NCBI GenBank assembly: GCA_964512375.1
Contig: CAZEIY010000002.1
Location: 1 to 36,780, forward strand
DNA: 36,780 bases
Direction of reading: 5' to 3'
Source of the DNA: an uncultured Rickettsiales bacterium
GTDB taxonomy: Bacteria; Myxococcota_A; UBA796; UBA9615
Under the pieces are notes generated by a model. That model saw nothing but the letters and a program-made list of their open reading frames with translations, had not been told where the DNA came from and made no database searches. Below, piece after piece: positions 12,876 to 32,329 of the stretch. Position 1 is the stretch's first letter. Each line of letters starts with the position of its first letter. The translations under genes were made by a program, and so were the position numbers.

Positions 12876-13037
12876 GGAGCGCCTTGTACCCGGTGCGGGG
12901 GCCCGCGTCGAGACTGATTGTTACGAGGATCGGCAGGCAACTGTCTCGATGATGAGGTGAATGGTGACCTCAACGACAGAATCAACGTCCGCCAGGATGG
13001 ACCATCCAACAACGGAAGAAGGGCAGCGTGGCTCCCC

Positions 13038-13637: not shown

Positions 13638-13657
13638 GGTTCCGCCTTCGGGCCGCG

Positions 13658-13686
13658 TTGACAAGCCATCGTAGCAACCCAATACT
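13658..13686 (+). promoter_or_regulatory. Putative sigma-70-type promoter for moaD-moaE/trmB
   Basis: Read directly. TTGACA (13658-13663), an exact 17-nt spacer, then AATACT (13681-13686; 4/6 match to TATAAT). It lies about 64 nt upstream of the moaDE ATG at 13750, in the divergent intergenic region. Confidence 0.4.
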
Positions 13687-13749
13687 CCGAAGCTCGCCGC
13701 GAGGCCTCCCGACATCCCCCGCGCGGCACCAGTGGAAGCGCAAGAACTC

Positions 13750-19517: not shown

Positions 19518-20741
19518 CTAGTTAAAGCCGATCTGCCAGACCGCTTGGGCCGCATACGACCCATTCAGGTCGGTGCCGCTATGGCTGTTCGAGCCCGTCG
19601 CACCGATCATCCAGTAGCCGTACCAGGTGGAGCCACTGCCCGCGTTGGCAGCCACACTATCCAGGGACGAGGCCTCGGACATTGTCCCCACCTCATTGCT
19701 GGAGTAGCCAGCATGAGAAAAGGTGAGCCCCTGATTACCCAGGGCCGTCGAGATCTCCGATGCGCTGTACCCACCAGCAGATGCAAGATCGAGGTTTAAT
19801 CCCCCCATGGTGCCGGCATCAATGAGCGCAATCGAGAGAAAGTCCCCGTAGCCACCATTGGTAATGGTCGACAGAAGGGCCGTCCCCAGGTTGGCACCCG
19901 CCTCATCCAGGGCCACGGCGCTACAGGCATCGGGACTTCCGGTGCCAGCAGATACATCAGACGCCGTACTATCATCGAAGTCGATCTTGCCAATGCAGTT
20001 ACTGCAGCCGGTGACTGGACTTCCGAAGTTCGCCGTTCCTTCGATAGAGATGCTCTGCTCACAGTCGATGGTTTGATTGGCCCCATCACTCCAATAGGTG
20101 AACTTGAACGTCGCAGCGATGCCGGTAGAGCCCCCAGCGCCTGGGTTGGCGGTCATCTCAAATGAGAAGGTCAAGGCATCGAAGCTCAAGGTTCCCGTTG
20201 CGTCGTCGTCGTCGCTGGTCGTGTCGTCGTCGTCGCTGGTCGTGTCGTCATCGTCGTCGTCATCGTCATCGTCATCGTCGCCAAGACCACCACCAACACC
20301 GTTGTTGCAGTGAAGGGTTACCGAGTCATCGCTGCCGTCACAGCTGAGACCGCCAGGCGCGCACATATCGAGCATTGGTTCGCAGTTGCATGCCGGGCCG
20401 TCAGTACATGATGACGGCGCAGCACGACACGTGCCCTCATTCTCGGTGTTGTCGACCAGGCAGAACAAGTCGCCGCTGCACTGACTACCCCACAGACAGG
20501 GACCACCCGCAGGCTCGAGAGCTGCGCACGACCCCTCGGGCGAAGATGCCGGATCATCGGCCTTGCAGTATTCCTCGCCGGCAGTGCAATCAACATCTGT
20601 GAAGCACGAGTCACCATTGCCGTCATCATCATCACCACCGCCGCGCACAACACTTATGCAGCTGGTCAAGAGCAGCGCAGTGGCCACCAGACAGGACAGG
20701 GTGGCCAGAAAGACTTGTAAGCTCGATGTGTTCTTCGACAT
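19518..20741 (-). CDS. Acidic cysteine-rich lipoprotein, unknown function
   Basis: MSKNTSSLQVFLATLSCLVATALLLTSC lipobox. Cys-rich N-terminal modules (DSCFTDVDCTAGEEYC...). D11 tract followed by 2 x TTSDDDD. The Gly/Ser/Ala-rich C-terminal half matches no family I recognise. Confidence 0.6.
   Translation of the reverse strand: MSKNTSSLQVFLATLSCLVATALLLTSCISVVRGGGDDDDGNGDSCFTDVDCTAGEEYCKADDPASSPEGSCAALEPAGGPCLWGSQCSGDLFCLVDNTENEGTCRAAPSSCTDGPACNCEPMLDMCAPGGLSCDGSDDSVTLHCNNGVGGGLGDDDDDDDDDDDDTTSDDDDTTSDDDDATGTLSFDALTFSFEMTANPGAGGSTGIAATFKFTYWSDGANQTIDCEQSISIEGTANFGSPVTGCSNCIGKIDFDDSTASDVSAGTGSPDACSAVALDEAGANLGTALLSTITNGGYGDFLSIALIDAGTMGGLNLDLASAGGYSASEISTALGNQGLTFSHAGYSSNEVGTMSEASSLDSVAANAGSGSTWYGYWMIGATGSNSHSGTDLNGSYAAQAVWQIGFN
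20202..20281 (-). repeat. In-frame tandem repeat: 2 x identical 21-nt unit plus GTC/ATC (Asp codon) run
   Basis: gtcgtcgtcgtcgctggtcgt occurs at 20202-20222 and again identically at 20223-20243. An (gtc/atc)n run follows to about 20280. On the coding strand this encodes D11-(TTSDDDD)2. Confidence 0.9.
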
Positions 20742-20865: not shown

Positions 20866-22053
20866 CTAGCCCGAGAGGCTGGAGTCGACCTCTCGTAGCA
20901 ACGCCACGGTGAAGTCACGAGCGGTAATCAGCGCGTCCGCATCGACCGAATTAATATCGTCCGACTGGCTCCCAAGAGGACCCGGCGGGCGACCATTAAC
21001 CAGCCCGCTAAGGGTAATGGCCCGATGCCCCGCTCGAGTGGGCGGGCCGGCATCGGTCCGACCGGGCGAAGCAAAGGAGCGCACCAATCGGAACGCTGGC
21101 TGACTCGCAACCCGCTCGGCTGCAGCCGGAATACTGGGCCGGTACGGCAGGGTCCGCCAACGTCCCTCAGACACCGCATACGCGAGCTCACCTCGACCCA
21201 CACCTTCTAGATTGACGAACCAGGTCGAGTCACGCTCAAGCATGTGAGCAAATTGGTAGAGGAAGCCCTTCATCCCACCCGCGTCTGGCTGCCTCGCGCC
21301 GCTGGCAACCACCCACAGCTCCAGGTGCTTGAGGGGTTCGCACTTGAGTTGATGGGCAACTGCCAGGATGACAGCAAGGCTCGAGGCATTATTGACCGCA
21401 CCCTGCTGTGGTGGAGAACGCCACCAGTCCAGAGCCAGAGCCAGGGCTGCGCTATGCACGAAGACTGCACCCAGGAGACCAGCAAGAAGGACTACCACGA
21501 GCACCGAGAGATCATCGCGAGACCACTGCACCGCTGCGGCGAACAACTGGATAACTCCTGCAATCAGCACGATGGAGCCGGGATGCACCGACTTCCCTGG
21601 GAGCTCGCGGTCAAGGAAGAGGCGCCTGGCCCAGGGGAGCAGCAGCGAAGACGTGGCCGCTACATCCGAATGCGCCACCAGGATCAGTCGTCCTCGAGCC
21701 GCTGGATTATCGGACCGAGCCACCATGTTGCAGGTGATCCGTTTGAGGAGGAGCTTGCGCAAGAGCCTTGGGCTACCGCGTAGTTCACCCCAGAACGACA
21801 GCAGGGTGATGGCAGTGAGAAAGAAGGCGAAAGGCCCCGGATCGAACAGCGCCTGTAGGGCAGCCCAGAGAAAGAACAGGCTGTGCATTCCCAGGATCAC
21901 CGGAACCCGCGGGGCACACACGGCACCAGCCAGCACCGCACCCATACCCAGCTCATCAAGACGACCAGCAAGCATGGCCTGAGCCATGCGCTCGCCTTCT
22001 GAGCCGGCCTCTCGAGGGGGCAGATCGAGCACATCGCGGATGAAGTTCATCAT
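20866..22053 (-). CDS. M28-peptidase-like membrane protein, apparently with degenerate metal-binding residues
   Basis: From ATG-ATG at 22048-22053: MMNFIRDVLDLPPREAGSEGERMAQAMLAGRLDELG (typical M28 N-terminus), LILVAHSDV (HxD), GAVNNASSLAVILAVA (in place of DNASG). Hydrophobic TM-like segments are intercalated. The 94-aa N-terminal extension in the ORF track (to 22335) overlaps qhpD and is probably not translated. Confidence 0.55.
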   Translation of the reverse strand: MMNFIRDVLDLPPREAGSEGERMAQAMLAGRLDELGMGAVLAGAVCAPRVPVILGMHSLFFLWAALQALFDPGPFAFFLTAITLLSFWGELRGSPRLLRKLLLKRITCNMVARSDNPAARGRLILVAHSDVAATSSLLLPWARRLFLDRELPGKSVHPGSIVLIAGVIQLFAAAVQWSRDDLSVLVVVLLAGLLGAVFVHSAALALALDWWRSPPQQGAVNNASSLAVILAVAHQLKCEPLKHLELWVVASGARQPDAGGMKGFLYQFAHMLERDSTWFVNLEGVGRGELAYAVSEGRWRTLPYRPSIPAAAERVASQPAFRLVRSFASPGRTDAGPPTRAGHRAITLSGLVNGRPPGPLGSQSDDINSVDADALITARDFTVALLREVDSSLSG

Positions 22054-22115
22054 CGAGATGCTCTCAGTGCGTTGGTGTCCTTCATCCATGAGCCTGCAAA
22101 GTGTAGTCGGATCGC

Positions 22116-22121
22116 TATAAT
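22116..22121 (+). promoter_or_regulatory. Possible -10 box (TATAAT) for the qhp-like operon
   Basis: A perfect TATAAT at 22116-22121 lies about 50 nt upstream of the TTG(22171)/GGAG(22159-22162) candidate start of qhpD. The -35 region is poor (cTGcaA at 22094-22099). Weak evidence. Confidence 0.2.
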
Positions 22122-22170
22122 CGTGAACCCCGCAGCAGCAGCTTCCCAGCGGAACCCCGGAGTCACCCTC

Positions 22171-23589
22171 TTGCAGTTGGTTGCAGACGAGATCGTACGG
22201 CTCCCCGACAATGGGCTGCAGCACGTCTTTCACGTGCCCACATCCTCCTTCTACGAGGTGGGCAAGGAAGGCTTGGCGATGCTCGATGAGATCATGAGTC
22301 GGGACGTAATTGATAGCCTCGATGACATCGCTCACCCGTCAACGCTGAGCGAGCAGGACCGCCATGATCTCGTCGAGGACATGCGGCGTCTGCGCCTGCT
22401 GGTCCCCGAAGGCGAACGGGGGAATCCGGGAGCACTACGTGATCGACCGCCGGCAAGCGAGAGCATTCGCAACCTTGTCCTACACGTTGCTCACAACTGC
22501 AACCTCGCGTGCACCTATTGCTACGCCGACCACGGCAAGTACCAGGGCAAGGCAATGCTCATGGAGCAAGGCCAGGCACAGCGCTACATTGACTGGCTCT
22601 TTGCTCAGAGCGGTGAGCACAACAACCTGGGCATCACCTTCTTCGGCGGCGAGCCTCTGCTGAACATGCCAGTGGTGCGCGAAGCAGCTGCGTACGCCCG
22701 CGAAGTGGCTGCCAGCCATGGCAAGTCGGTCAGATTCTCTATGACCACAAACGGCACACTAATTGGTGATGCTGCCGTTAGTTTCTTCGAGGAGATCGAC
22801 TGTCAGGTCACGGTCAGCCTCGATGCGATCGGCAAACAGAACGACCGTCTCCGCCCCTTTCACAGTGGTCGCGGCTCCTACGAGTTGATCCTGAAGCGCA
22901 TCCGGCCCCTGCTGGATCGTCGCAAGGTAGCGGCACGAGTAACGATCACTCGAAAGAACCTCGACGTTGTCCGCACCGTTGAGACCCTACTGGCTCAGGG
23001 ATTTACCGAGGTAGGCTGCTCGCCGGTCGACGCCAAGGACGCCGCCTTCGATCTCAGGGGGGAGGACTACGAGCAGCTCCTGCTCGGCTTCTCCGAATTG
23101 AGCGAGCGCTTCATCTCTGCAGGTCTGAGAGGCCAACTCTACGGCTTCTCGAACATCAAGAACCTGCTGAAGGCTATCCACGATGGGCAGAACAAGGAAT
23201 ACCCCTGCGGTGCAGGGCTGCAAATGGTAGCGGGCGCACCCAATGGCGACATGAGTCTCTGCCATCGCTTTGTCGGTGAAGACGAATTTGTGCTGGGCAA
23301 CGTTGAGAAGGGCGGCATCGACCGAGACAAGCGGCTGCAAGTGCTGAGCGACATCCGCCTTGATCAGCGCAGCGATTGTGGCAACTGCTGGGCCCGGTAC
23401 ATCTGCTCGGGCGGCTGCCATCACGTCAACTTCCTGTTCGAAGGAAGCCCCCAGCGCACCTATACAAGCCACTGCGATTACCTGCGTGACTGGTACAAGC
23501 TTGGCCTGACCACCTATGCGAGACTGGTAACAGCCAAGCCAGACTTCTTCGACTCGCCGCTCCAGGCAAGCGGCACCTGTAAGCAATGA
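22171..23589 (+). CDS. qhpD: Radical SAM/SPASM peptide-modifying maturase, QhpD-like (thioether cross-link forming)
   Basis: CNLACTYC (CX3CX2C radical-SAM cluster), GITFFGGEPLL, and a C-terminal SPASM region (CGAGLQMVAGAPNGDMSLCHRF...CGNCWARYICSGGCHH). The N-terminal hVFHVPTSSFYEV peptide-binding-type segment resembles SCIFF/QhpD-class maturases. The precursor-like subunit gene follows immediately. Start uncertain: the ORF track gives TTG 22072. I prefer TTG 22171 (GGAG 8 nt upstream, third-position GC rises from here, 472 aa). Confidence 0.85.
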   Translation: MQLVADEIVRLPDNGLQHVFHVPTSSFYEVGKEGLAMLDEIMSRDVIDSLDDIAHPSTLSEQDRHDLVEDMRRLRLLVPEGERGNPGALRDRPPASESIRNLVLHVAHNCNLACTYCYADHGKYQGKAMLMEQGQAQRYIDWLFAQSGEHNNLGITFFGGEPLLNMPVVREAAAYAREVAASHGKSVRFSMTTNGTLIGDAAVSFFEEIDCQVTVSLDAIGKQNDRLRPFHSGRGSYELILKRIRPLLDRRKVAARVTITRKNLDVVRTVETLLAQGFTEVGCSPVDAKDAAFDLRGEDYEQLLLGFSELSERFISAGLRGQLYGFSNIKNLLKAIHDGQNKEYPCGAGLQMVAGAPNGDMSLCHRFVGEDEFVLGNVEKGGIDRDKRLQVLSDIRLDQRSDCGNCWARYICSGGCHHVNFLFEGSPQRTYTSHCDYLRDWYKLGLTTYARLVTAKPDFFDSPLQASGTCKQ

Positions 23590-23608
23590 GCAACTGCTGG
23601 GAACAACC

Positions 23609-23905
23609 ATGAAGAGAATCAAGCCCCTCAATATGAAGGCCCGACGCGTCGACGATGAGAGCACGAACGATGTGCGGGGCTATGCGTTCAACGACTGCTG
23701 CGCGTCCTTCGCACCAGGCTGGGAGGTTGGTCACAACGACCGAGCCGACCCTTGTCCCTGGAAGAGCGACCTCAGCTTGTGCTGGAACACGTGCTACTGG
23801 ATGGGCCAGGTACCAGACGCGCAGTCACACTCCGACTGGCTCGATGCTTGCGGCAACATCCAGCAGGACTGGCGAAGCCTCTGCACCATCCCGGATACAA
23901 AATGA
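23609..23905 (+). CDS. qhpC: Quinohemoprotein amine dehydrogenase gamma-subunit-like cross-linked peptide (CTQ-bearing subunit)
   Basis: 98 aa: ...NDCCASFAPGWEVGHNDRADPCPWKSDLSLCWNTCYWMGQVPDAQSHSDWLDACGNIQQDWRSLCTIPDTK. It matches, from my memory of the Paracoccus/Pseudomonas gamma subunits, C..DPGWEV, C.....DL..C...CWW..QV.D, DWR and the terminal FP.[DT]K. It starts 19 nt after qhpD and is linked to the next gene by an ATGA overlap. Confidence 0.85.
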   Translation: MKRIKPLNMKARRVDDESTNDVRGYAFNDCCASFAPGWEVGHNDRADPCPWKSDLSLCWNTCYWMGQVPDAQSHSDWLDACGNIQQDWRSLCTIPDTK

Positions 23906-24951
23906 ACTCCAAACTCCTCTCCTTCGTACTCGCTGGCGCGCTGGTCCTGTGCGCATCTCCTGCTCTGGCCAGTGGCACCACCGGGGCTACCGCCTGGGTC
24001 TCCTCCAACCATATTCAGGTCATCGACATTGACAACGGCTCGGTCGTCGGCCGACTCCCCTTGCGTGAATTCATCCACGAGATGCAGTTCAGCGGCACCG
24101 GTGACCGGCTCTACGTCGGCACCAGCCAGGCCCTGCGCGTGGTGGACCCCGAGCAGATGGCCTTCACTGCGGTGCTATCTGCCCGTCGCACCAAGGCCGT
24201 TGCCGTGAGCAACGACGGTGATCAGGTGTTTGCAATCCATCCGGGCGATCCTGATCTAAGTCAGCAGGCGCGCAAGGCCGGAACCCCGCTGCCCCTGGCA
24301 ACCCTCACGCACTACTCAACCGAAACCATGAGCGAAAATCGCTCATGGCAAGTACCGGCCATGAGCTTTGACGTTGCCATCTCGCCCGCAGGAGATCGTG
24401 TCTTCGTGCTCGACCCCACGGCGGGACAGGTGCAGATCTACAGCCCTACCGGCGACCTGCTCGACAAAGTCACCGTCGCTCCGCCAGATGCGAACGGACG
24501 ACCTCAGCAGGCCATGCTCGGTTGGATGGCAGTCTCACCCGACGGCCAATCCATGGTGGTGCCGGTGACCGTGGCTACCGGCGCTGTGCTCGCCCGGGTT
24601 GATCTGAGCTCATCTCCCAGCGCGCAACGCGTGTCTCGAGACCCCCTCAAGGCGAACGGCCGCGTTCAAGGTCTGGCATGGAACGCAGCCGGTGACGGCG
24701 TACTCATCACCTCCGTGGGTGGACTCTGCAACTACACAGGCGCTGGCAGTGAGCAGACCTGGACACCCCAAAAGGTCAACTATGTGGACATCGAGCCGGT
24801 CCCGGCGAGCTCACACAGCGTGGCCGTTGCACCCGTCTTCTCCGAAAAGAATAAGAGTGGGGGTGTCTCCATACTGTCCGAGCGAGGCGAAATTGTTCGC
24901 TCCATCGAGTTGAGCGACATGAGCCCCTTCTTCGTGGCGGTTCGCCCCTGA
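23902..24951 (+). CDS. qhpB: Periplasmic beta-propeller protein, QhpB (beta subunit)-like
   Basis: The ATG at 23902 overlaps the qhpC stop (ATGA). Sec signal MNSKLLSFVLAGALVLCASPALASG. Repeated YVTN/YncE-like blades (IQVIDIDNGSVVGRL, VAVSNDGDQVFAI, VAISPAGDRVFVLD, MAVSPDGQSMVVP). The assignment to QhpB rests mainly on context. Confidence 0.7.
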   Translation: MNSKLLSFVLAGALVLCASPALASGTTGATAWVSSNHIQVIDIDNGSVVGRLPLREFIHEMQFSGTGDRLYVGTSQALRVVDPEQMAFTAVLSARRTKAVAVSNDGDQVFAIHPGDPDLSQQARKAGTPLPLATLTHYSTETMSENRSWQVPAMSFDVAISPAGDRVFVLDPTAGQVQIYSPTGDLLDKVTVAPPDANGRPQQAMLGWMAVSPDGQSMVVPVTVATGAVLARVDLSSSPSAQRVSRDPLKANGRVQGLAWNAAGDGVLITSVGGLCNYTGAGSEQTWTPQKVNYVDIEPVPASSHSVAVAPVFSEKNKSGGVSILSERGEIVRSIELSDMSPFFVAVRP

Positions 24952-25055
24952 GCAAGACCCTCTACTGCCTACACGTACCAGATAGGGCTCGGCTGACAGC
25001 ACTAGCTGCTCGCTTGCAAGATCTGGGTTCTGCTCTCCCGGTCTGGGCTGACTCA

Positions 25056-25943
25056 ATGACTCCCGAGCGAATGTACTTCGGGGTGGAGTTCTGCCAGCAC
25101 CTGCTCCCAGACTCGAACGACATCATTGCAGCGGTACAGCAGTGTCATGTGCACGGGCTCAGCTTTACCCTCCTCACCCCCTATGTCACCGATCCCTACC
25201 TCGAGGAAGTGGACAGCCTGGTGGAGACAATGCTCGAACAGAATCCTGCCGACCCCGAGGTGGTAGTCAATGACTGGGGAGTACTGCGTCGACTGAAGAG
25301 GCGGTATGCCGATCGCATCAAGATTATCCTCGGACGAGGGCTCAATAGAATGATGCGTGATCCCAGGCTCCCCGACCTCGGCCCCGAACATCTTGGCGGA
25401 GATGAACAGCCCGAAGTCTGGCAGGAGGGCAGCTTCAGTAGCAGTGAATTCAGGGGCATGTTGTCCGAACAAGGCGTAGAGCGAGTAGACATCGACTATC
25501 CCCTGCAGGGGCTGCGAGCGCTCCGTGATGGACCGTTGCGATTCACTCTCCACCTCCCCTTTGGAATGATCGCGACGGGCCGGAACTGCATGGTCAACTC
25601 CTACGGCAAACCACCCTCCGTGCGTTTCATGGTTCCCCTCGCCTGTGACGCCCCATGCCGGCGGTTCACCCTGCGACTGCGTGCACCGTGGTCGAGACGC
25701 GAGTTGGGAAACACGGCGCTACCGCTGCTCAACCAGCAGAGCAGCTTCCGAAGCGGCCATCCCCCCTCACGCAGGGTCGACGTGTTGCCCGCGGGCTCTA
25801 CCGATCCAGCGCCGCGCTTTCTCCAGAAGGGCAACTCCCACTTCTATGAGCTTAATGAAGAGCAGGTTGAAGCTGCCCTGCAGTGGGCCGAGTGTCAGCC
25901 GGCACTCGATCGCATCGTGGTCGAGCCCGACCTGCCCATGTAG
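25056..25943 (+). CDS. Peptidase-U32-family protein, UbiV-like architecture (putative 4Fe-4S subunit of an O2-independent hydroxylase)
   Basis: 295 aa from ATG 25056 (the ORF track starts at TTG 25014). MYFGVEFCQHLLP (early Cys), VVVNDWGVLRRLKRRY..IKIILGRGLN (U32 core), LHLPFGMIATGRNCMV-x-ACDAPC. This reproduces the one-early-plus-three-late Cys pattern (C..CX3C) I recall for E. coli UbiV (LPLAYSARC...CETCC). Confidence 0.65.
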   Translation: MTPERMYFGVEFCQHLLPDSNDIIAAVQQCHVHGLSFTLLTPYVTDPYLEEVDSLVETMLEQNPADPEVVVNDWGVLRRLKRRYADRIKIILGRGLNRMMRDPRLPDLGPEHLGGDEQPEVWQEGSFSSSEFRGMLSEQGVERVDIDYPLQGLRALRDGPLRFTLHLPFGMIATGRNCMVNSYGKPPSVRFMVPLACDAPCRRFTLRLRAPWSRRELGNTALPLLNQQSSFRSGHPPSRRVDVLPAGSTDPAPRFLQKGNSHFYELNEEQVEAALQWAECQPALDRIVVEPDLPM

Positions 25944-25952
25944 GCTCCCGCG

Positions 25953-27044
25953 ATGAAGATCCTGGCACCTTTGAGCGACGTAAGCGAAGTCGCAGCTTTG
26001 GCCCACGCCGGAGCAGATGAATTCTTCTGTGGACTGTTTCCCGACGGCTGGTTCGAGCGCTGGGGCAGAGCCGCCTGGCCCAATCGCCGCGGTCCCGGAC
26101 CGGCCAACATCGAACACCTGGACGACCTAGCTCGCCTCGCCGACGAGGTCCACGCACAAAAGCGAGACGGTGATCCGCTCCCCCTCTTCGTCGCAATGAA
26201 CCAGCAATTCTATAGCGACGAGCAAGCCGAGTTTCTTCTAGACCAGGCACGCACCATCGCCGCACGCGGAGCCGCAGATGCCGTCATTGTAACGGACCCG
26301 GGCTTCATCAGACTGCTGCGTCGTGAGTTGCCACAGCTGCCTATCTTCGCGTCGACGGTCACGGTGACGCTTAACGCCGAGTCTGCGCTCTTCCTCCAGG
26401 AGCTCGGCTGCGAGCGGGTCATCGTGTCCAGACACCTGCACCTCGAGGAACTGGCACAGCTGCAAGCAGCCCTGCCCGATGTACAGCTGGAGGTCTTCCT
26501 ACTCAACGACAACTGCTACTTCGAAGAGGGCTTCTGCAGCACAGCGCATGCCCTGCCGGGCTTCGGTGTCTACTGCATGACCCCCTGGGAATTTGAGGTC
26601 AGCATCGACGACCAGGGCCTATTGGATGACCCTGAAGAGAAGGAGCGATGGGACTTTCTCATCGAGGAACATCTCGAGCTCCAGCGTTCTCTCTCACACC
26701 GCGGCTATGGCCAGGGCGAGACCTCTCTACCTCTCGGCCCGTGCGGACTGTGCGCTATTCCTGAGTTAATCGACCTGGGTATCCACAGCGGCAAGATCGT
26801 CGGCCGAGAGGCTGGTCTCTATCGGAAGCTACGCTCGGTGCAAGCAGTACGCTACGTTCGCGACGCCTATCTCGACAATGGCGATGCAAGCGAGACCAAG
26901 AAGAAGGCACTTGATCTGCGCGGGGACCCGAAGGGCTGCGCCGATGGCTTCTTCTGTTACTACCGATCGGCCCGTGAGCGGGGTCTAGTGGACATGCCTT
27001 CCCGCGCGCGAGGACCTCGCCCCGCGCGACGAAAGGAGCACTAG
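25953..27044 (+). CDS. Peptidase-U32-family protein, UbiU-like architecture (putative 4Fe-4S subunit of an O2-independent hydroxylase)
   Basis: MKILAPLSDVSEVAALAHAGADEFFCG, DAVIVTDPGFIRLLRRELPQLPIFASTVTVTLNAESALFLQELGCERVIVSRHLHLEEL, EVFLLNDNCYFEEGFCSTAHALPGFGVYC (CX6CX12C) and IPELIDLGIHSGKIVGREAGLYRKLRSVQAVRYVRDA. These parallel the U32 core, the CX6C...C cluster motif and the KIEGR C-terminal motif of UbiU-type proteins. The gene starts 9 nt after the preceding U32 gene. Confidence 0.8.
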   Translation: MKILAPLSDVSEVAALAHAGADEFFCGLFPDGWFERWGRAAWPNRRGPGPANIEHLDDLARLADEVHAQKRDGDPLPLFVAMNQQFYSDEQAEFLLDQARTIAARGAADAVIVTDPGFIRLLRRELPQLPIFASTVTVTLNAESALFLQELGCERVIVSRHLHLEELAQLQAALPDVQLEVFLLNDNCYFEEGFCSTAHALPGFGVYCMTPWEFEVSIDDQGLLDDPEEKERWDFLIEEHLELQRSLSHRGYGQGETSLPLGPCGLCAIPELIDLGIHSGKIVGREAGLYRKLRSVQAVRYVRDAYLDNGDASETKKKALDLRGDPKGCADGFFCYYRSARERGLVDMPSRARGPRPARRKEH

Positions 27045-28928
27045 GTGAGCGCCGTCGACGAGCCTTCGGGGCCACCACCTCCGCCTGCATTCCTCGCATC
27101 CAACATCCGCGCCGAGGGAACGCCCCCCGAAGACACTCAGGTCACCGAACATACGCCCATCCCGTGGCCAAGGGTCTTCCGTTACCTCCTCCCCTACTGG
27201 CGAGCTGAGCTTGTGCTGCTCATCGCAATGGCCATCGGCATAGGCCTGTCCCTCGTCTATCCGCTGTTGATGCGCGAGATCGTCGATGAGGTAATCGGCC
27301 CGGGTCTGAGCACCGGCGGGGACACCTCGCGGCTGATGCCCCTGGTCGGGCTAATCTTCGCGGCCACAGCGGGCGGTGTAGCGCTCTCGGCTGCAGCTGG
27401 GTGGCTGCAGACCTGGGTGACGGCAAGGGTGTTGGTGGACATTCGACTGGAGACCTTCCGGCATCTACAGAGGCTCGGGCCACTGTTCCTGGCACGCCGG
27501 CGGCTAGGTGACATTCTCTCTCGAATGGGCGGTGACCTCGCCGAGCTGCAGCAGGTCGCCACAGGAACCCTCATCGGAGTCATAGGCTCAGTCATCACTC
27601 TGATCGCCGTGGTGACAGCACTCAGCGTCCTTCAGCCGCTCCTTCTGTTGGTAGGCGCCGCCTTCATTCCCTTCGCGCTGCTACTCCTCGCCGGCCTCCG
27701 ACCTGTGATCCGCCGGCTATCGCTGCGAGTCCGTGAGCGAAACGCGGACATCTCCCACCACATGCTTGAGAACCTCTCGGGGCTGCGCTCCATACTTGCT
27801 CACGGACTGGCCGACCGTGAGTCCGACCGCTTCCGCAGCCACAACATGGCGCTGGTTCGGGTAGTGCTGCGCTATCAACTCTGGAACTCAGGCTCCGCTG
27901 GTGCCTTCCAGGTATTGGTCACCACCAACCTGCTGGCCGTGCTGGTGATCGGCGTCGGTCTCCTGCAGGACGGACAGATGACTGCTGGTGACCTCCTGGC
28001 CTTCCTGCTCTTTCAGCAGCGAATTTATGGGCCGCTTCAAGGTCTCGCCGGCACCTACATCAACCTGCAACGTGCGGCTGCTTCCATCACCCGGGTCTTC
28101 GAGATCCTCGACTCTCTGCCGCTCACCGAGGCCGACAAACCAGTTCCCGCTACCGAGCCTGTCCGAGGCAGTGTCGAGTTCCAGGACGTGTGCTTTGCTT
28201 ATGGGCCTGGTCGCGAGGTTCTCTCTCAGCTCTCTTTTCGGCACCAACCAGGAACAACAACAGCTGTAGTTGGTCCCTCTGGCGTTGGGAAGAGCACAAT
28301 CATTGACCTTCTGTTCCGCTTCGCAGACCCCGGTACGGGACAGGTCCTCATCGACGATGTCGACCTGCGACAACTCGAAGCCGCAAGCATCCTTCCCCAG
28401 TTCGCGCTGGTCAGTCAGGAACCGGTGCTCTTCGACGGCAGCTTGCGAGACAACCTTCGCTGGCTTGTTCCGGATGCCAGAGATGAACGCCTGCGAGAAC
28501 TACTCACACAGGTAGGGCTCTCGGACTTCGAGCAGGGGCTTCCTCAGGGCCTGGACACCCCCCTGGGAGATCGGGGCGTTCGCGTCTCGGCCGGCCAGAA
28601 GCAGCGCATAGGCCTCGCAAGAGCGCTACTGCGAGACCCGGTTCTGCTGGTACTCGATGAGGTCACATCATCGCTGGACTGGGAGAGCGACCGCCTGGTC
28701 ACAGACGCGATCGAGGAGCGCCGGTCACGACAACGAGGGACCCTCGTCATCAGCCATCGCCTGCAATTGGCAGCTGGCGCAGATCAAGTACTCGTGCTCA
28801 CGGAAGGACGCATCGAGGAGCGCGGTAGACACCAGGACCTGCTCAAGGCGGAAGGCCTGTACGCGAGACTCTGGCGGCTCCAACGCGGGGAGCCCGCGCT
28901 GGCACCTGCCGCCACGGAGCCCGCGTAA
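27045..28928 (+). CDS. qhpF: ABC exporter, fused permease/ATPase (QhpF-like)
   Basis: Six-TM exporter domain, then Walker A GPSGVGKST, signature LSAGQKQRIGLARAL and Walker B LVLDEVTSSLD. The GTG start at 27045 directly abuts the U32 stop and is preceded by AAAGGAG at a 6-nt spacing. No C39 peptidase domain. Confidence 0.85.
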   Translation: MSAVDEPSGPPPPPAFLASNIRAEGTPPEDTQVTEHTPIPWPRVFRYLLPYWRAELVLLIAMAIGIGLSLVYPLLMREIVDEVIGPGLSTGGDTSRLMPLVGLIFAATAGGVALSAAAGWLQTWVTARVLVDIRLETFRHLQRLGPLFLARRRLGDILSRMGGDLAELQQVATGTLIGVIGSVITLIAVVTALSVLQPLLLLVGAAFIPFALLLLAGLRPVIRRLSLRVRERNADISHHMLENLSGLRSILAHGLADRESDRFRSHNMALVRVVLRYQLWNSGSAGAFQVLVTTNLLAVLVIGVGLLQDGQMTAGDLLAFLLFQQRIYGPLQGLAGTYINLQRAAASITRVFEILDSLPLTEADKPVPATEPVRGSVEFQDVCFAYGPGREVLSQLSFRHQPGTTTAVVGPSGVGKSTIIDLLFRFADPGTGQVLIDDVDLRQLEAASILPQFALVSQEPVLFDGSLRDNLRWLVPDARDERLRELLTQVGLSDFEQGLPQGLDTPLGDRGVRVSAGQKQRIGLARALLRDPVLLVLDEVTSSLDWESDRLVTDAIEERRSRQRGTLVISHRLQLAAGADQVLVLTEGRIEERGRHQDLLKAEGLYARLWRLQRGEPALAPAATEPA

Positions 28929-29638
28929 TGGACCAGCAGCGGTGCCTGGTCGCAATCCTCGATAGTGGCGTGAGTCCGAGACATCCCCATCTGCAGGGAC
29001 TCACGGTACGGGGATTCAGCCTGGACGGAGATGGGGAGCCCTTCACACGGTCCAGCTCGTTTGCTGACCGCACGGGCCACGGCACAGCCTGCGCGGCAGC
29101 GATGTTCCGCCTCTACCCGGACATCGAGCTACTCGCTGTCCGGGTGCTGGATGCCGACCTCACCACTACCCACCTGAACCTCGCCGAGGGCATTCGACTG
29201 GCCGCGCGGGAAGGCGCCGAAGTCATCAACCTCAGCCTGGGATCACAAGAAGAGAGCAGCCAATCGGTCCTTGCTGAGGCGGTCGATGAAGCCCTGCAGC
29301 TTGGCTCCATCTGCGTCGCCGCCGCCCATCCGCAAGGTCAGACACTCTGGCCGGCAGACCTACCCACTGTGATCTCGGCTCAAAGTCACCGAAGTTGCCC
29401 CCTCCGTGACCTCTACCGCATTCCGGGCTCGCTACCGCGATTCTTGTGCCACGGCTATCCGCGTCCGGTCGAAGGCCGCCCACCCACCGACAACCTCTAT
29501 GGCCCATCCCTGGCTGCTGCCCACCTCAGCGCACGCGTGGCTCGAATCAAGGCCGAGAACAGCCCTTCTTTCGAGGCTCTGATACGACTTCTCGAGGCCG
29601 AGTGCAGCGGCGAACTTCCCAACTCAGCGACAGCCTAA
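28928..29638 (+). CDS. qhpE: Small subtilisin-like (S8) serine peptidase, QhpE-like leader peptidase
   Basis: VAILDSGVSPRHPHL (Asp), DRTGHGTACAAAM (His), YGPSLAAAHLSARVA (Ser). 236 aa with no signal peptide, as expected for the cytoplasmic QhpE type. TAATG overlap with qhpF. Confidence 0.8.
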   Translation: MDQQRCLVAILDSGVSPRHPHLQGLTVRGFSLDGDGEPFTRSSSFADRTGHGTACAAAMFRLYPDIELLAVRVLDADLTTTHLNLAEGIRLAAREGAEVINLSLGSQEESSQSVLAEAVDEALQLGSICVAAAHPQGQTLWPADLPTVISAQSHRSCPLRDLYRIPGSLPRFLCHGYPRPVEGRPPTDNLYGPSLAAAHLSARVARIKAENSPSFEALIRLLEAECSGELPNSATA

Positions 29639-29675: not shown

Positions 29676-30545
29676 ATGACTTCTGACACACCCGACTTTC
29701 GCGATGCTGAAGAGGCCTTTGTTTCCGGCGATTTCGAGACATCCCTCGTCATCTGCGAAGGCCTGTTCCACGAAGATGAAGCCACCACCCCAACCGAGAT
29801 CCTGCACCTGGCCGCAGAGTCCTTGTTGTCACTGCAAGAGCCCGGTGAAGCCGGGCATCTGGCACGGCTGGCGCTGTCCCAGGCGACGGATGAGCCTGCT
29901 CTACATCACTGCCTCGGTGTCAGTTGCTTCGAGTTGGGGGACTTCGCTGGCGCCCAGCGCCACTTTGAGCGCGCCGTCAGCCTCGACGAGGACTTGGGCG
30001 AGCCCCTCTTCTACCTCGCGATGATCGCCGAACGTACGGGCCCAGAAGAACGATCAAGAGAGCTGTACACGGAGGCCGTTCGCCGAGACCCCGAGAACCT
30101 CATGATGCCCACCCCATGGTCAGAGAAGACCATCAAGCAGGTGTTCGACGAGGTGGTGGAGGAGATGCCCGACCCCTTCGGCATCTGGCTGGCTGGACTG
30201 GCCATTCGCATCGAAGCCCTACCGGCTGAGGCCGCGCTGCGCAGGTCGGACAGTCCTATCTCACCACTGGTCCACTGCCTCTTCGACGGAGGCGGCGAAC
30301 ACCAACCCGAAGGTGACGACCCCGAAGCCTGGCTGAGACATCATCCCGACAGCGTCACCCTGTTCGCCGCGAACCTGGGCAAGAGCGCCCACGATCAATA
30401 CGAGCTACACCGAGACCTGCTCGAGGCCATCCTCTGGGAAGCCATGGATTTCCTGGGCCTCGACGAGACACACCTGCTCACCCTCGGGATGCTCCAGGAA
30501 GACGACGATGAGCCTCTTCATCCCGTCGGTGCGAACAACCGATAG
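29676..30545 (+). CDS. TPR-containing protein with C-terminal Zincin_1 (DUF1025)-like domain lacking HExxH
   Basis: N-terminal TPR-like helices (HHCLGVSCFELGDFAGAQRHFERAVSLDEDLGEPLFYLAMI). The C-terminus KQVFDEVVEEMPDPFGIWLAGLAIRIEALP...VTLFAANLGKSAHDQYELHRDLLEAILWEAMDFLGLDETHL parallels the minimal zincin family, but WEAMD replaces HExxH. AAGGA sits 5 nt before the ATG, and the gene starts 37 nt after qhpE. Confidence 0.55.
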   Translation: MTSDTPDFRDAEEAFVSGDFETSLVICEGLFHEDEATTPTEILHLAAESLLSLQEPGEAGHLARLALSQATDEPALHHCLGVSCFELGDFAGAQRHFERAVSLDEDLGEPLFYLAMIAERTGPEERSRELYTEAVRRDPENLMMPTPWSEKTIKQVFDEVVEEMPDPFGIWLAGLAIRIEALPAEAALRRSDSPISPLVHCLFDGGGEHQPEGDDPEAWLRHHPDSVTLFAANLGKSAHDQYELHRDLLEAILWEAMDFLGLDETHLLTLGMLQEDDDEPLHPVGANNR

Positions 30546-31320: not shown

Positions 31321-32329
31321 GATGGATGAACTTCCAACGGAGCAGCAGCGCAGTTGGCAAGAGCTTGAGGCCTTGCTTGAGGGCCTCGAACGTCAGGGCC
31401 TCACCGAACTCCACGCTGACGACGTTCGCGAGTTGCAGCGATTGTACCGCAGAGCGAGCGCTGAACTTCTGCTCGCTCGGGGAGTTGGCGACAAAACCGA
31501 GCTCACCGACTACCTCGAGGCGCTGGTCGCGAGAGCCTACACCACGCTCCACGCACCGAGACCGCTGGACTGGCGAGCTGGAAAGCGTTTCTTCACGACC
31601 TACTGGCCGAGGATTGTGCGGAGAGAGCACCCCTACCTGCTGGCTGCCGCGGCCACCATTGCTCTCGGCTTCCTCCTGTCCTGGCTGCTCTGTCGCGCCA
31701 ACTCGGACGCCTTCGACCACTTGATGCCGGCAGAGGTTATTGCCAGCTATGGGGAGCAGCCCGACGACTACCGCGCCGAACGATTCGGGGATCTCGCTGA
31801 CGAGGATGCGGCGCTCTTCTCGGCCTACCTGGTTACGAACAACATCAGGGTCTCTCTGAAGGCATTCGCCTACGGACTCACTGCCGGCATCGGCACATGC
31901 ATCGTACTCTTCTTCAACGGAGCGATGCTTGGAGCCATCGCCGCCAACTTCGGAGGCTGGAAGATGAGCATGCCCTTCTGGGCTCTCATTCTCCCCCACG
32001 GGATCATCGAGATCTTCTCGATCGCTCTCTGTGGTGGTGGCGGCTACATCCTCGCCGATGCACTGCTTCGACCCGGCCGACGGAGTCGACTCGACTCCCT
32101 GCGATCCCGCGCGAGAGATGCCGTCGCGCTCGCAGCGATGGCGATCCCAATGCTCGCAGTGGCTGCCTTGATCGAGGGCTTCATTACTCCCCTGGCCGAG
32201 ATGAGCGACCCGCAGAAGCTGGCCTTCGCAGCCGCCACTGCGCTGGCATTAGCCCTCTACATAAAGGCTCCATGGCTGCACCGAGAACCTGACAGCGAGC
32301 CGCAGTCCTTCAGGGACGCTCCTGGCTGA
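31319..32329 (+). CDS. SpoIIM-like (stage II sporulation protein M / DUF95) membrane protein
   Basis: NNIRVSLKAFAYGLTAGIGTCIVLFFNGAMLGAIAANF and LILPHGIIEIFSIALCGGGGYIL are typical SpoIIM/DUF95 motifs. The N-terminal helical region (VRELQRLYRRASAELLLAR...YLEALVARAYTTLH) is as seen in the RDD-associated subfamily. Confidence 0.82.
   Translation: MMDELPTEQQRSWQELEALLEGLERQGLTELHADDVRELQRLYRRASAELLLARGVGDKTELTDYLEALVARAYTTLHAPRPLDWRAGKRFFTTYWPRIVRREHPYLLAAAATIALGFLLSWLLCRANSDAFDHLMPAEVIASYGEQPDDYRAERFGDLADEDAALFSAYLVTNNIRVSLKAFAYGLTAGIGTCIVLFFNGAMLGAIAANFGGWKMSMPFWALILPHGIIEIFSIALCGGGGYILADALLRPGRRSRLDSLRSRARDAVALAAMAIPMLAVAALIEGFITPLAEMSDPQKLAFAAATALALALYIKAPWLHREPDSEPQSFRDAPG

What the first reader, a model, noticed from the sequence alone, without database searches (positions are those of the whole stretch)
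25056..27044. UbiU/UbiV-like U32 pair in the position where QhpG is expected: candidate O2-independent tryptophan hydroxylase for CTQ biogenesis
Seen in sequence: two adjacent U32-family genes sit between qhpB and qhpF.
- The first (295 aa) has one early Cys (FGVEFCQH) plus C-x18-C-x3-C after an LPFGMIATGRNC segment.
- The second (363 aa) has CYFEEGFC-x12-C (CX6C...C), further Cys residues (GPCGLC) and a KIVGRE motif.
- No FAD-monooxygenase gene (GxGxxG N-terminus, about 430 aa) is present in the operon.

Established knowledge: U32 proteins UbiU-UbiV form a 4Fe-4S heterodimer that performs the three ubiquinone ring hydroxylations without O2. RlhA and TrhP are U32 proteins needed for O2-independent hydroxylation of rRNA C2501 and tRNA U34. 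QhpG needs O2 to dihydroxylate the QhpC Trp.

Inference: the U32 pair replaces QhpG and hydroxylates a protein-bound Trp indole anaerobically. This would be a new substrate class (a peptide side chain) for U32 hydroxylases and an anaerobic route to a tryptophylquinone cofactor.
Basis: partly seen in the sequence, partly recalled or inferred. Interest (0 to 1): 0.92.

Follow-up and report, generated by a model that had tools for sequence, protein, structure and literature searches.

The report
U32 Fe-S pair replacing QhpG
Two adjacent iron-sulfur "U32" genes sit in an amine-dehydrogenase maturation operon where the oxygen-requiring tryptophan hydroxylase QhpG normally is, and this swap recurs in many phyla, so they are a strong, untested candidate for an oxygen-independent way to build a tryptophan-quinone cofactor.

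Summary
Window 22072-29638 (+) is one tight operon: qhpD-like radical SAM, qhpC (gamma subunit, all CTQ and cross-link residues kept), qhpB-like propeller, gene A (25056-25943), gene B (25953-27044), qhpF-like ABC exporter and qhpE-like protease. B is a clear U32 protein. A is only a remote U32 relative with no Pfam or NCBIfam hit. Its four Cys are invariant and spaced like those of UbiV.

There is no QhpG, QhpA, ubiT or ubi gene in the 36.8 kb window.

- The A+B pair is a conserved two-gene module found in 408 species genomes.
- In 34 of the 80 loci fetched it is embedded in qhp clusters, across Bacillota, Acidobacteriota, Gemmatimonadota, Planctomycetota, Nitrospinota, Proteobacteria and a sulfate reducer.
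- 32 of those 34 have no QhpG within 10 kb.
- In an independent QhpC-ascertained sample, 32 clusters had QhpG only, 3 had the pair only, and none had both.

The pair is not UbiU/UbiV or TrhP, because scores fall far below the curated cut-offs and some hosts are Bacillota.

Caveats:
- Two clusters carry both QhpG and the pair.
- Related pairs exist without qhp genes.
- Genome-wide absence of QhpG was not testable.
- There is no biochemistry.
- No paper linking U32 to QHNDH was found.

The parts
22072..23589 (+). qhpD-like radical SAM/SPASM maturase. It is expected to install the three Cys-Asp/Glu thioether cross-links in QhpC. The start codon is uncertain.
   Evidence: Best NCBIfam hit is TIGR03906 quino_hemo_SAM, 364 bits, below the equivalog cut-off of 453. 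It also hits Pfam Radical_SAM and Fer4_12. The gene is syntenic in all related clusters.
23609..23905 (+). qhpC, the gamma-subunit precursor (98 aa). W64 is the CTQ Trp. C58 is the CTQ Cys. C30/31-E39, C49-D54 and C62-D70 are the cross-link pairs.
   Evidence: NF037958 QH_gamma scores 62.7, above the cut-off of 50. PF08992 is also hit. The alignment to PDB chains 1jmx_G and 1jju_C keeps C37, C41, W43, E16, D33 and D49. The residues are conserved in 40 QhpC sequences.
23902..24951 (+). qhpB-like beta-propeller subunit with an N-terminal signal peptide. Its ATG overlaps the qhpC stop codon.
   Evidence: There is no direct family hit. The lineage profile matches the canonical QhpB profile with hhalign probability 98.5%, E 3.4e-15, over 282 columns.
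25056..25943 (+). U32-A. A remote U32-like barrel protein with four invariant Cys in the pattern C13-Xn-C178-X18-C197-X3-C201, which resembles UbiV. It is the proposed Fe-S partner subunit.
   Evidence: No Pfam or NCBIfam hit. hhalign to the U32-B family gives probability 92%, E 6.7e-7. AF2 pLDDT is 88.4. Fold hits are weak TIM-barrel matches that include U32 structure 5d88. Cys are invariant in 84 of 84 members. The family has 2191 representatives.
25953..27044 (+). U32-B. A U32-family protein with a UbiU-like C188-X6-C195-X12-C208 motif plus invariant C264xxC267 and near-invariant C329/C335. It is the proposed catalytic hydroxylase subunit.
   Evidence: PF01136 scores 120.6 bits. Only partial N-terminal hits to TrhP (80 bits, cut-off 534) and UbiU (50 bits, cut-off 440). 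AF2 pLDDT is 84.3. The best PDB fold match is U32 peptidase 5d88, E 1.8e-7. Cys conservation was checked.
27045..28928 (+). qhpF-like ABC exporter (fused permease and ATPase). It is expected to export the modified QhpC.
   Evidence: Hits ABC_membrane and ABC_tran. It is syntenic with the QhpF of canonical clusters. Its start codon abuts the U32-B stop codon.
28928..29638 (+). qhpE-like subtilisin, the leader peptidase of QhpC.
   Evidence: NF049966 QhpE is the best hit at 132.6 bits, below the cut-off of 165. It also hits Peptidase_S8.

Best explanation
Genes A and B encode a cytoplasmic two-subunit Fe-S enzyme built like UbiU-UbiV. In this operon it does the job that the FAD/O2 monooxygenase QhpG does in canonical clusters.

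Proposed sequence of events:
1. QhpD installs the three thioether cross-links in the QhpC precursor.
2. The U32-A/U32-B complex hydroxylates the indole ring of Trp64 (Trp43 of mature QhpC) without O2. By analogy with UbiUV and TrhP, the oxygen would come from an organic donor such as prephenate, and the [4Fe-4S] clusters would carry away the electrons.
3. QhpE removes the leader peptide.
4. QhpF exports the peptide.
5. The hydroxylated Trp is oxidised and linked to Cys58, giving cysteine tryptophylquinone in a QhpC-QhpB enzyme. In this lineage the enzyme has no haem subunit.

What is shown: operon structure, family assignments, conserved Cys and CTQ residues, cross-phylum linkage to qhp genes, and a distribution complementary to QhpG.

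What is inferred: heterodimer formation, Fe-S binding, the substrate residue, the number of hydroxylations and the oxygen donor.
For: Operon.
- The gene order is qhpD-C-B-A-B'-F-E, with gaps of 0-10 nt around the pair.
- Every known maturation function is encoded except QhpG's.

Linkage to qhp genes.
- 408 of 185,579 species genomes encode an A relative, and 80 loci were fetched.
- A and B are adjacent in 73 of the 84 loci analysed (the 80 fetched plus the window and earlier context loci).
- 34 of the 80 fetched loci are qhp clusters. Together with the window and three context loci they make 41 of 57 loci with adequate flanks.
- They include Aneurinibacillus, Calidifontibacillus, Brevibacillus, Acidobacteriota, Gemmatimonadota, Nitrospinota, Planctomycetota, Thauera and the strict anaerobe Desulforhabdus sp. 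TSK.

Complementarity with QhpG.
- 32 of the 34 pair-containing clusters have no QhpG within 10 kb.
- A QhpC-ascertained sample gave 32 QhpG-only, 3 pair-only and 0 both.
- The two canonical plasmid clusters inspected have QhpG. None of the 27 QhpA plasmids has a U32-A homologue.

Substrate. The CTQ Trp and Cys and all cross-link residues are kept in QhpC.

Chemistry.
- U32 proteins UbiU-UbiV are an Fe-S heterodimer for O2-independent aromatic hydroxylation, with CX6CX16CX38C and CXnCX12CX3C motifs (PMC6747719).
- Prephenate is their oxygen donor (PMC10990095).
- A and B carry analogous invariant Cys sets.

Interaction between A and B.
- The A and B trees show the same groupings.
- P0500 is a natural A-B fusion.

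Oxygen donor hint. P0053 is one B-chorismate mutase fusion that groups with the qhp-linked sequences.

Location. Neither A nor B has a signal peptide.
Against: - L081 and L090 contain both an NCBIfam-valid QhpG (312 and 309 bits, cut-off 240) and the pair. The two are therefore not strictly alternatives. This fits a dual aerobic/anaerobic system like UbiH/F/I plus UbiUV, but it equally fits a different role for the pair.
- Related A/B pairs occur with no qhp genes within 10 kb. These include a robust clade in anaerobic Bacillota, a B-A-order group in archaea and Chloroflexota, and a few Myxococcota and Acidobacteria.
- Monophyly of the qhp-linked set has no bootstrap support: 4 of 80 replicates for the B tree and 13 of 80 for the A tree.
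- Many qhpADCB cores have no E, F or G nearby. Absence from a cluster is therefore not absence from the genome, and genome-wide absence of QhpG was not testable.
- Some hosts are aerobes.
- A's membership of U32 is only remote, and its specific likeness to UbiV is not significant by profile comparison (E 0.07-0.23).
- There is no experimental evidence of any kind.
Confidence: 0.6

Rival explanations
1. The pair belongs to QHNDH/CTQ maturation but performs a step other than Trp hydroxylation. Possibilities include electron supply to or removal from QhpD, oxidation of dihydroxy-Trp to the quinone, help with the Cys-Trp link, an extra modification of the extra Cys residues, or proteolysis. Trp hydroxylation would then be done by an unlinked enzyme.
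For: - The pair co-occurs with a bona fide QhpG in L081 and L090.
- E, F and G can be unlinked from qhpADCB cores, so an unlinked hydroxylase is conceivable.
- U32 proteins were first named as peptidases.
- QhpC of the QhpA-less lineages carries extra conserved Cys.
Against: - The distribution is almost complementary to QhpG.
- The pair also occurs in QhpA-containing clusters whose QhpC has no extra Cys.
- Leader cleavage is already covered by QhpE.
- The only demonstrated chemistry linked to Fe-S U32 proteins is O2-independent hydroxylation of aromatic rings (PMC6747719, PMC10990095).
Confidence: 0.2
2. QhpG, or another O2-dependent hydroxylase, is encoded elsewhere in these genomes. The pair would then be an accessory or conditional (low-O2) back-up rather than the replacement.
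For: - Dual O2-dependent and O2-independent systems are the rule for ubiquinone and for tRNA ho5U (PMC6747719; PMC6599085, as listed).
- L081 and L090 show both enzymes together.
- Genome-wide absence of QhpG was not tested.
Against: - 32 of 34 pair-containing clusters lack QhpG within 10 kb, whereas QhpG is in-cluster in 32 of the 35 QhpE/F-holding loci that carry QhpG or the pair.
- A strict anaerobe (Desulforhabdus sp. TSK, L060) has the full cluster with the pair and no QhpG nearby.
Confidence: 0.12
3. The pair is the organism's housekeeping U32 hydroxylase, that is UbiU/UbiV for ubiquinone or a TrhP/RlhA-type RNA hydroxylase. Its position inside the qhp operon would be coincidental.
For: - B's best NCBIfam hits are TrhP and UbiU.
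- The Cys patterns resemble those of UbiU and UbiV.
Against: - The scores are 5-9 times below the curated cut-offs and cover only the N-terminal half.
- There is no ubiT or ubi gene in the window.
- The same insertion is conserved in qhp clusters of at least seven phyla, including Bacillota.
- The pair is tightly spaced inside the operon.
Confidence: 0.03

Closest known systems
UbiU-UbiV (E. coli YhbU/YhbV), the O2-independent ubiquinone ring hydroxylase
   Same: - Two adjacent genes: one canonical U32 protein and one divergent partner.
- The CX6CXnC motif in the large subunit aligns with UbiU C169, C176 and C193.
- The partner has a first Cys far upstream followed by CXnCX3C, as in UbiV C39/C180/C193/C197.
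- Both are cytoplasmic.
- The expected substrate is an aromatic ring that needs more than one hydroxyl group.

   Different: - Not orthologous: 49.8 bits against a cut-off of 440.
- There is no UbiT partner.
- The fourth UbiU ligand (C232) is not conserved. Instead B has invariant CxxC and C-x5-C pairs, giving seven conserved Cys.
- Cys spacing in A is X18, not X12.
- Similarity of A to UbiV is not significant by profile comparison.
- The presumed substrate is a peptide-bound Trp, not a prenylated phenol.
- The genomic partners are qhp genes.

TrhP and RlhA (U32 proteins needed for prephenate-dependent ho5U34 in tRNA and ho5C2501 in rRNA)
   Same: - They belong to the U32 family.
- They act in O2-independent hydroxylation of an aromatic heterocycle within a macromolecule.
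- TrhP is the best NCBIfam hit of B.
   Different: - They are single-gene enzymes with extra C-terminal domains.
- B scores 80 bits against a cut-off of 534.
- Their substrates are RNA.
- They have no link to qhp genes.
QhpG (FAD-dependent monooxygenase of CTQ biogenesis; PMC7876137)
   Same: - It holds the same place in the pathway logic. It acts in the cytoplasm on cross-linked QhpC held by QhpD, before QhpE and QhpF.
- It occupies the same operon neighbourhood.
- Its distribution across qhp clusters is complementary to that of the pair.

   Different: - The fold and cofactor are unrelated: a flavoprotein against Fe-S TIM-barrel proteins.
- QhpG takes both O atoms from O2.
- QhpG is absent from the window.
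LodB and GoxB (flavoprotein maturases of the CTQ oxidases LodA and GoxA)
   Same: They are Trp-hydroxylating maturases for a tryptophylquinone cofactor. QhpG models cross-hit them.
   Different: They are flavin- and O2-dependent. No LodA- or GoxA-like gene was seen next to any pair.

Membership tests
Peptidase U32 (Pfam PF01136) | Sequence match above the Pfam gathering score, tested for gene B | tested here: met
   B scores 120.6 bits against a cut-off of 22.4, over residues 107-338. The fold match to U32 structure 5d88 has E 1.8e-7 and TMt 0.62.
Peptidase U32 (Pfam PF01136) | Sequence match above the Pfam gathering score, tested for gene A | tested here: not met
   A has no hit. Only 4 of 61 family members give faint hits, best E 0.015. 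Remote homology is supported only by hhalign against the B family (probability 92%, E 6.7e-7, 76 columns) and by a weak fold hit to 5d88 (rank 4, E 1.2e-2).
UbiU (NCBIfam NF047963, equivalog) | Score at or above the curated cut-off of 440 bits | tested here: not met
   B scores 49.8 bits, over the N-terminal part only. Homologues in other loci score 85-91 bits.
UbiU-UbiV-UbiT system | Co-occurrence with ubiT (SCP2 protein) and ubiquinone genes | tested here: not met
   No such gene is in the 36.8 kb window. The conserved neighbours are qhp genes. The whole genome was not available.
UbiU-UbiV-type Fe-S U32 hydroxylase (how it works, not orthology) | Four conserved Cys per subunit in the patterns CX6CXnC...C and CXnCXnCX3C | tested here: met
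   A has C13, C178, C197 and C201 invariant in 84 of 84 members. B has C188, C195 and C208 aligned with UbiU C169, C176 and C193, plus C264 and C267 invariant in 73 of 73. The reference motifs come from PMC6747719. The fourth ligand of B is not identified.
UbiU-UbiV-type Fe-S U32 hydroxylase (how it works, not orthology) | [4Fe-4S] binding and heterodimer formation | not testable with these tools
   Only indirect evidence is available. A and B are adjacent in 73 of 84 loci. Their trees show the same groupings. One natural A-B fusion exists, P0500.
UbiU-UbiV-type Fe-S U32 hydroxylase (how it works, not orthology) | Prephenate as the oxygen donor | not testable with these tools
   The only hint is one U32-B-chorismate mutase fusion (P0053) that groups with the qhp-linked sequences. 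No chorismate mutase gene is present in any other locus.
TrhP (NCBIfam NF011996, equivalog) | Score at or above the curated cut-off of 534 bits | tested here: not met
   B scores 80.4 bits, over residues 77-195 only.
Quinohemoprotein amine dehydrogenase (qhp) system | Gamma subunit QhpC with the CTQ Cys and Trp and three Cys-Asp/Glu cross-link pairs | tested here: met
   NF037958 scores 62.7, above the cut-off of 50. All residues align with PDB chains 1jju_C and 1jmx_G.
Quinohemoprotein amine dehydrogenase (qhp) system | QhpD, QhpE, QhpF and QhpB present | tested here: met
   QhpD and QhpE are the best hits but fall below the equivalog cut-offs: 364 against 453, and 132.6 against 165. QhpB is supported by profile-profile comparison at probability 98.5%. 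QhpF is assigned by family and synteny.
Quinohemoprotein amine dehydrogenase (qhp) system | Dihaem alpha subunit QhpA | tested here: not met
   There is no QhpA HMM hit and no CXXCH-containing ORF of at least 100 aa in the window. The subunit is also absent from all loci of this lineage (L011-L020, L028). The whole genome was not available.
Quinohemoprotein amine dehydrogenase (qhp) system | FAD monooxygenase QhpG (NF049967) | tested here: not met
   The QhpG HMM gives no hit in the window. The same HMM and NF049967 do detect QhpG in the controls L091 and L092 and in L081 and L090.

The most novel reading that the evidence does not exclude
The A/B pair is the first U32-type Fe-S hydroxylase that acts on a protein side chain. 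It would dihydroxylate the QhpC tryptophan without O2, probably with prephenate as the oxygen donor. That gives an oxygen-independent route to a tryptophylquinone cofactor. This route would be the standard one in Bacillota, Acidobacteriota, Gemmatimonadota and several anaerobes. In some Proteobacteria it would coexist with QhpG as a dual aerobic/anaerobic system. The related stand-alone pairs in anaerobic Bacillota and archaea would then be hydroxylases for substrates that are still unknown.
Probability: 0.55. Interest if true: 0.9.

Novelty: new variant of a known kind. Interest (0 to 1): 0.8.

Why it matters
All known routes to protein-derived quinone cofactors (TPQ, LTQ, TTQ, CTQ) are described as needing O2 or H2O2. 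For CTQ, both oxygen atoms were shown to come from O2 through QhpG (PMC7876137). It is therefore unexplained how strict anaerobes that carry qhp clusters make the cofactor.

U32 Fe-S proteins are the only enzymes known so far that hydroxylate aromatic rings with an organic oxygen donor. Their known substrates are a lipid quinone and RNA bases.

If the pair is the QhpG substitute, three things follow.
- The substrate range of this chemistry extends to proteins and RiPP-like peptides.
- Roughly 2,000 uncharacterised protein clusters (the U32-A family, now annotated 'hypothetical') gain a function.
- A soluble, genetically defined substrate, QhpC held by QhpD, becomes available for the in vitro U32 hydroxylase assay that the field still lacks for UbiUV.

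The hypothesis can be tested directly with existing QhpC/QhpD co-expression and mass-spectrometry protocols.

Tried and rejected
- **Sequence search of A and B against the PDB.** No hits.
- **A family against E. coli UbiV.** hhalign against the single sequence and against a low-diversity UbiV profile was not significant (E 0.23 and 0.07). The third homologue search, on UbiV, returned only enterobacterial sequences at least 73% identical (nearly all 85% or more), so it added little. 'UbiV-like' therefore rests on the Cys pattern only.
- **Fold search of the A model.** Only generic weak TIM-barrel hits.
- **Conserved neighbours of the stand-alone pairs.** None were found. Spot annotation of L031 and L021 gave toxin-antitoxin-like ORFs (my reading of the translations), FG-GAP/MopE-motif proteins and CoA-metabolism genes, which are not informative.
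- **Chorismate mutase genes in all 92 loci.** Only the single fusion was found.
- **Monophyly of the qhp-linked pairs.** The set forms a clade only in the first B tree; in the first A tree it is a grade. Bootstrapping does not support a clade either (4 of 80 and 13 of 80 replicates). Only the stand-alone Bacillota clade is robust (74-76 of 80). A first bootstrap run had invalid outgroup distances and was repeated.
- **Reading as bona fide UbiU/UbiV or TrhP.** Rejected on curated cut-offs, gene context and host range.
- **Reading as the leader peptidase.** Judged unlikely, because QhpE is present and the Fe-S Cys are invariant.
- **Literature.** Seven full-text searches found no paper that connects U32 proteins with QHNDH, CTQ or qhp genes.


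Full report
**1. What is in the window**

Coordinates 22072-29638 (+ strand) hold seven co-directional genes with almost no spacing.
- A radical SAM/SPASM protein. Its best NCBIfam hit is the QHNDH maturase QhpD (TIGR03906, 364 bits, cut-off 453).
- A 98-aa QhpC gamma-subunit precursor (NF037958, 62.7 bits, cut-off 50; PF08992).
- A signal-peptide-bearing beta-propeller.
- Gene A (25056-25943, 295 aa).
- Gene B (25953-27044, 363 aa).
- A fused ABC exporter.
- A subtilisin whose best hit is QhpE (NF049966, 132.6 bits, cut-off 165).

The propeller has no direct family hit. Its lineage profile matches a canonical QhpB profile with hhalign probability 98.5%, E 3.4e-15.

The QhpC precursor aligns with the crystallised gamma subunits 1jmx_G and 1jju_C. 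It keeps the CTQ Cys and Trp (C58 and W64 here) and the three Cys-Asp/Glu cross-link pairs. The same residues are kept in 40 QhpC sequences from related loci.

**2. The observation checks out**

Gene B is an unambiguous U32 protein.
- PF01136 scores 120.6 bits.
- The AF2 model has pLDDT 84.3.
- The best PDB fold match is the U32 peptidase Mk0906, 5d88, E 1.8e-7.

Gene A is not recognised by Pfam or NCBIfam, and only 4 of 61 family members give faint PF01136 hits. Its relation to U32 rests on the following.
- A profile-profile match to the B family (probability 92%, E 6.7e-7, 76 columns of the N-terminal barrel half).
- A confident AF2 model (pLDDT 88.4) that gives only weak TIM-barrel hits, with 5d88 at rank 4.
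- A four-Cys pattern, C13-Xn-C178-X18-C197-X3-C201, that mirrors the CXnCX12CX3C pattern of UbiV.

These four Cys are conserved in 84 of 84 family members. In B, C188-X6-C195-X12-C208 aligns with UbiU C169, C176 and C193. Together with C264xxC267 it is conserved in 73 of 73 members.

A QhpG HMM that scores 575-690 bits on four true QhpG sequences finds nothing in the 36.8 kb window. The window also has no QhpA, no CXXCH ORF of at least 100 aa, and no ubiT, ubi or chorismate mutase gene. The flanks encode glycosyltransferases, Ffh, PNPase, TruB, a UDP-glucose dehydrogenase and MoxR/DUF58 genes.

**3. The A/B pair is a conserved module, often embedded in qhp clusters**

Close relatives of B (58-95% identity) come from marine MAGs with the same cluster.

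At 37% identity the same arrangement appears in Aneurinibacillus thermoaerophilus. Its order is qhpC-qhpA-qhpD-qhpB-A-B-qhpF-qhpE, with no QhpG in the cluster.

A scan of one genome per GTDB species with an A-family profile found 408 genomes with a relative, and 80 loci were fetched. I called six-frame ORFs and searched them with HMMs built from window, Aneurinibacillus and canonical plasmid proteins.
- A and B are adjacent in 73 of the 84 loci analysed (the 80 fetched plus the window and earlier context loci).
- 34 of the 80 fetched loci, or 41 of 57 adequately flanked loci when the window and three context loci are counted, carry qhpC/D with or without A, B, E and F next to the pair.
- These include Bacillota (Aneurinibacillus, Calidifontibacillus, Brevibacillus), Acidobacteriota, Gemmatimonadota, Nitrospinota, Planctomycetota, Candidatus Glassbacteria, Thauera, Motiliproteus and the sulfate reducer Desulforhabdus sp. 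TSK.

**4. Complementarity with QhpG**

- Canonical clusters on plasmids of Pseudomonas nitroreducens and Paracoccus yeei carry QhpG and no U32 gene. None of the 27 QhpA-bearing plasmids has an A homologue.
- Of the 34 pair-containing qhp clusters in the genome sample, 32 have no QhpG within 10 kb.
- A QhpC-profile scan of metagenome contigs gave an independent sample of 80 loci. Among the 41 that also hold QhpE/F, 32 have QhpG only, 3 have the pair only (L093, L097, L103), none have both, and 6 have neither. The 6 are mostly truncated contigs.
- The chance that all three pair-bearing loci fall among the nine QhpG-less loci is C(9,3)/C(41,3) = 0.008 (my calculation).

By elimination, every known maturation function is encoded next to the pair except QhpG's. 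The known functions are cross-linking by QhpD, leader removal by QhpE and export by QhpF.

**5. It is not UbiU/UbiV or TrhP**

- B scores 49.8 bits against the UbiU cut-off of 440, and 80.4 against the TrhP cut-off of 534. Both matches cover only the N-terminal part. Homologues elsewhere behave the same way.
- No UbiT-like partner is present.
- The same pair occurs in Bacillota, which from general knowledge use menaquinone.
- Its conserved neighbours are qhp genes, not ubi genes.

**6. Evidence about how it works**

UbiU and UbiV form a heterodimer with one [4Fe-4S] cluster each and are needed for three O2-independent ring hydroxylations (PMC6747719). Prephenate is the oxygen donor, and the same is proposed for TrhP and RlhA (PMC10990095). 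QhpG adds two oxygen atoms from O2 to the Trp of cross-linked QhpC held by QhpD (PMC7876137).

The A/B pair matches the UbiUV blueprint.
- It has one canonical and one divergent subunit.
- The Cys sets are analogous.
- Neither subunit has a signal peptide.

Indirect support for an A-B complex comes from adjacency, from the same groupings appearing in both trees, and from a 705-aa natural fusion of A and B, P0500. One B homologue, P0053, is fused to a chorismate mutase domain (PF01817), the enzyme that makes prephenate. In the single NJ tree of B it falls among the qhp-linked sequences. This is a single case and only a hint.

**7. What weakens the case**

- Two Proteobacteria MAG clusters (L081, L090) contain both the pair, with all Cys intact, and a QhpG that passes NF049967 (312 and 309 bits, cut-off 240). 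This fits a dual oxic/anoxic system like UbiH/F/I plus UbiUV, but also a distinct role for the pair.
- The family is wider than qhp. A clade of stand-alone A-B pairs occurs in anaerobic Bacillota (Desulfosporosinus, Desulforamulus, Acididesulfobacillus). A B-A-order group occurs in Bathyarchaeia, Undinarchaeota, Dehalococcoidia and Thermodesulfobacteriota. A few Myxococcota and Acidobacteria pairs also have no qhp genes within 10 kb and no other conserved neighbour.
- In single NJ trees the qhp-linked pairs group together, but bootstrapping does not support them as a clade (4 of 80 and 13 of 80). The stand-alone Bacillota clade is robust (74 of 80 and 76 of 80) and probably nests within them. 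What holds is that none of the 13 Bacillota stand-alone members and none of the 23 B-A-group members is qhp-linked, whereas 41 of 48 of the rest are.
- Many qhpADCB cores have no E, F or G nearby. An unlinked QhpG therefore cannot be excluded, and whole genomes could not be searched.
- Hosts are not all anaerobes.

**8. Comparison with what is known, and novelty**

The pair resembles UbiU-UbiV in how it is built, but it fails the membership tests for UbiU and TrhP. In the pathway it stands where QhpG stands, with an unrelated fold and cofactor.

Seven full-text searches found no paper connecting U32 proteins with QHNDH, CTQ or qhp genes. Public annotations of the two proteins are 'hypothetical protein' and 'U32 family peptidase'.

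I rate it a new variant of a known kind: a U32 Fe-S hydroxylase module recruited to a protein substrate. This would give an O2-independent route to a tryptophylquinone cofactor.

**9. Verdict**

- Confidence that the pair takes part in QhpC/CTQ maturation: about 0.8-0.85.
- Confidence that it specifically performs the Trp hydroxylation in place of QhpG: about 0.6.
- Interest: 0.8.

Noticed in passing
window 22072-29638 and the whole window; L011-L020, L025-L029, L035, L038-L042, L071: The cluster has no dihaem QhpA subunit, and the 36.8 kb window has no CXXCH ORF of at least 100 aa. Several other lineages also have QhpA-less clusters. Their QhpC carry extra conserved Cys: a CC doublet at the first cross-link site, and a C-x14-C pair near the C-terminus. 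This points to a haem-less QhpB/QhpC enzyme variant whose electron acceptor is unknown.
   Followed up: partly
L009, L010, L024, L032, L033, L036, L037, L040, L044, L048, L062, L073; L056, L065, L078, L079, L082 and others: Stand-alone U32-A/U32-B pairs occur without any qhp gene or other conserved neighbour. One is a robust clade in anaerobic Bacillota. Another is a group with B-A gene order in Bathyarchaeia, Undinarchaeota, Dehalococcoidia and Thermodesulfobacteriota. Their substrates are unknown.
   Followed up: partly
L006:223-1566 (protein P0053): A U32-B homologue (44% identical to the window's) is fused at its C-terminus to a chorismate mutase domain (PF01817), the enzyme that makes prephenate. 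A U32-A fragment lies just upstream at the contig end.
   Followed up: partly
protein P0500 (from the representative library; no locus): A 705-aa protein is a natural fusion of a U32-A domain (residues 37-294) and a U32-B domain (residues 332-665, 37% identical to the window's B). This is consistent with the two proteins working as a complex. A gene-calling artefact was not excluded.
   Followed up: partly
L081:1454-11732 and L090:1005-11756: Two Proteobacteria MAG clusters carry a bona fide QhpG (it passes NF049967) and the U32 pair together, in the order qhpG-A-D-C-B-F-E-U32A-U32B. They are candidates for a dual oxic/anoxic maturation system.
   Followed up: partly
L029:915-1583; L042:2623-5542: QhpC genes are tandemly duplicated in a Gemmatimonadota cluster and a Candidatus Glassbacteria cluster. 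QhpB-like genes are also duplicated in L042.
   Followed up: no
L004:6726-9887 and 12982-14634: In a relative with 58% identity, a 1053-aa Ser/Thr kinase/AAA/TPR gene on the opposite strand is inserted between U32-A and U32-B. FG-GAP/ASPIC genes are inserted between qhpF and qhpE.
   Followed up: no
window 20866-22335 (-) and 29676-30545 (+): An M28-peptidase-like membrane protein is transcribed divergently from qhpD, and a TPR + Zincin_1 protein follows qhpE. The M28 protein also flanks the cluster in L001, L004 and L005, and the TPR + Zincin_1 protein in L001 and L004 (L005 has only a TPR protein further downstream). This may be lineage synteny, or these may be extra maturation or regulatory factors.
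   Followed up: no
window 19518-20741 (-) and 32310-33851 (-): Two predicted secreted or lipoprotein-like ORFs carry long poly-Asp and DDDDSAG repeats and have no Pfam hits.
   Followed up: no
L021:4854-9451: A stand-alone pair in a Myxococcota MAG lies next to two FG-GAP proteins that carry the 'Cu-binding_MopE' motif. From memory, MopE has a Trp-derived kynurenine ligand. This is probably coincidental.
   Followed up: no
L127, L129, L143, L144, L163, L168 (metagenome loci): Many canonical qhpADCB cores have no qhpE, qhpF or qhpG within 10 kb. Maturation genes can therefore be unlinked, which limits any inference from 'absent in the cluster'.
   Followed up: no
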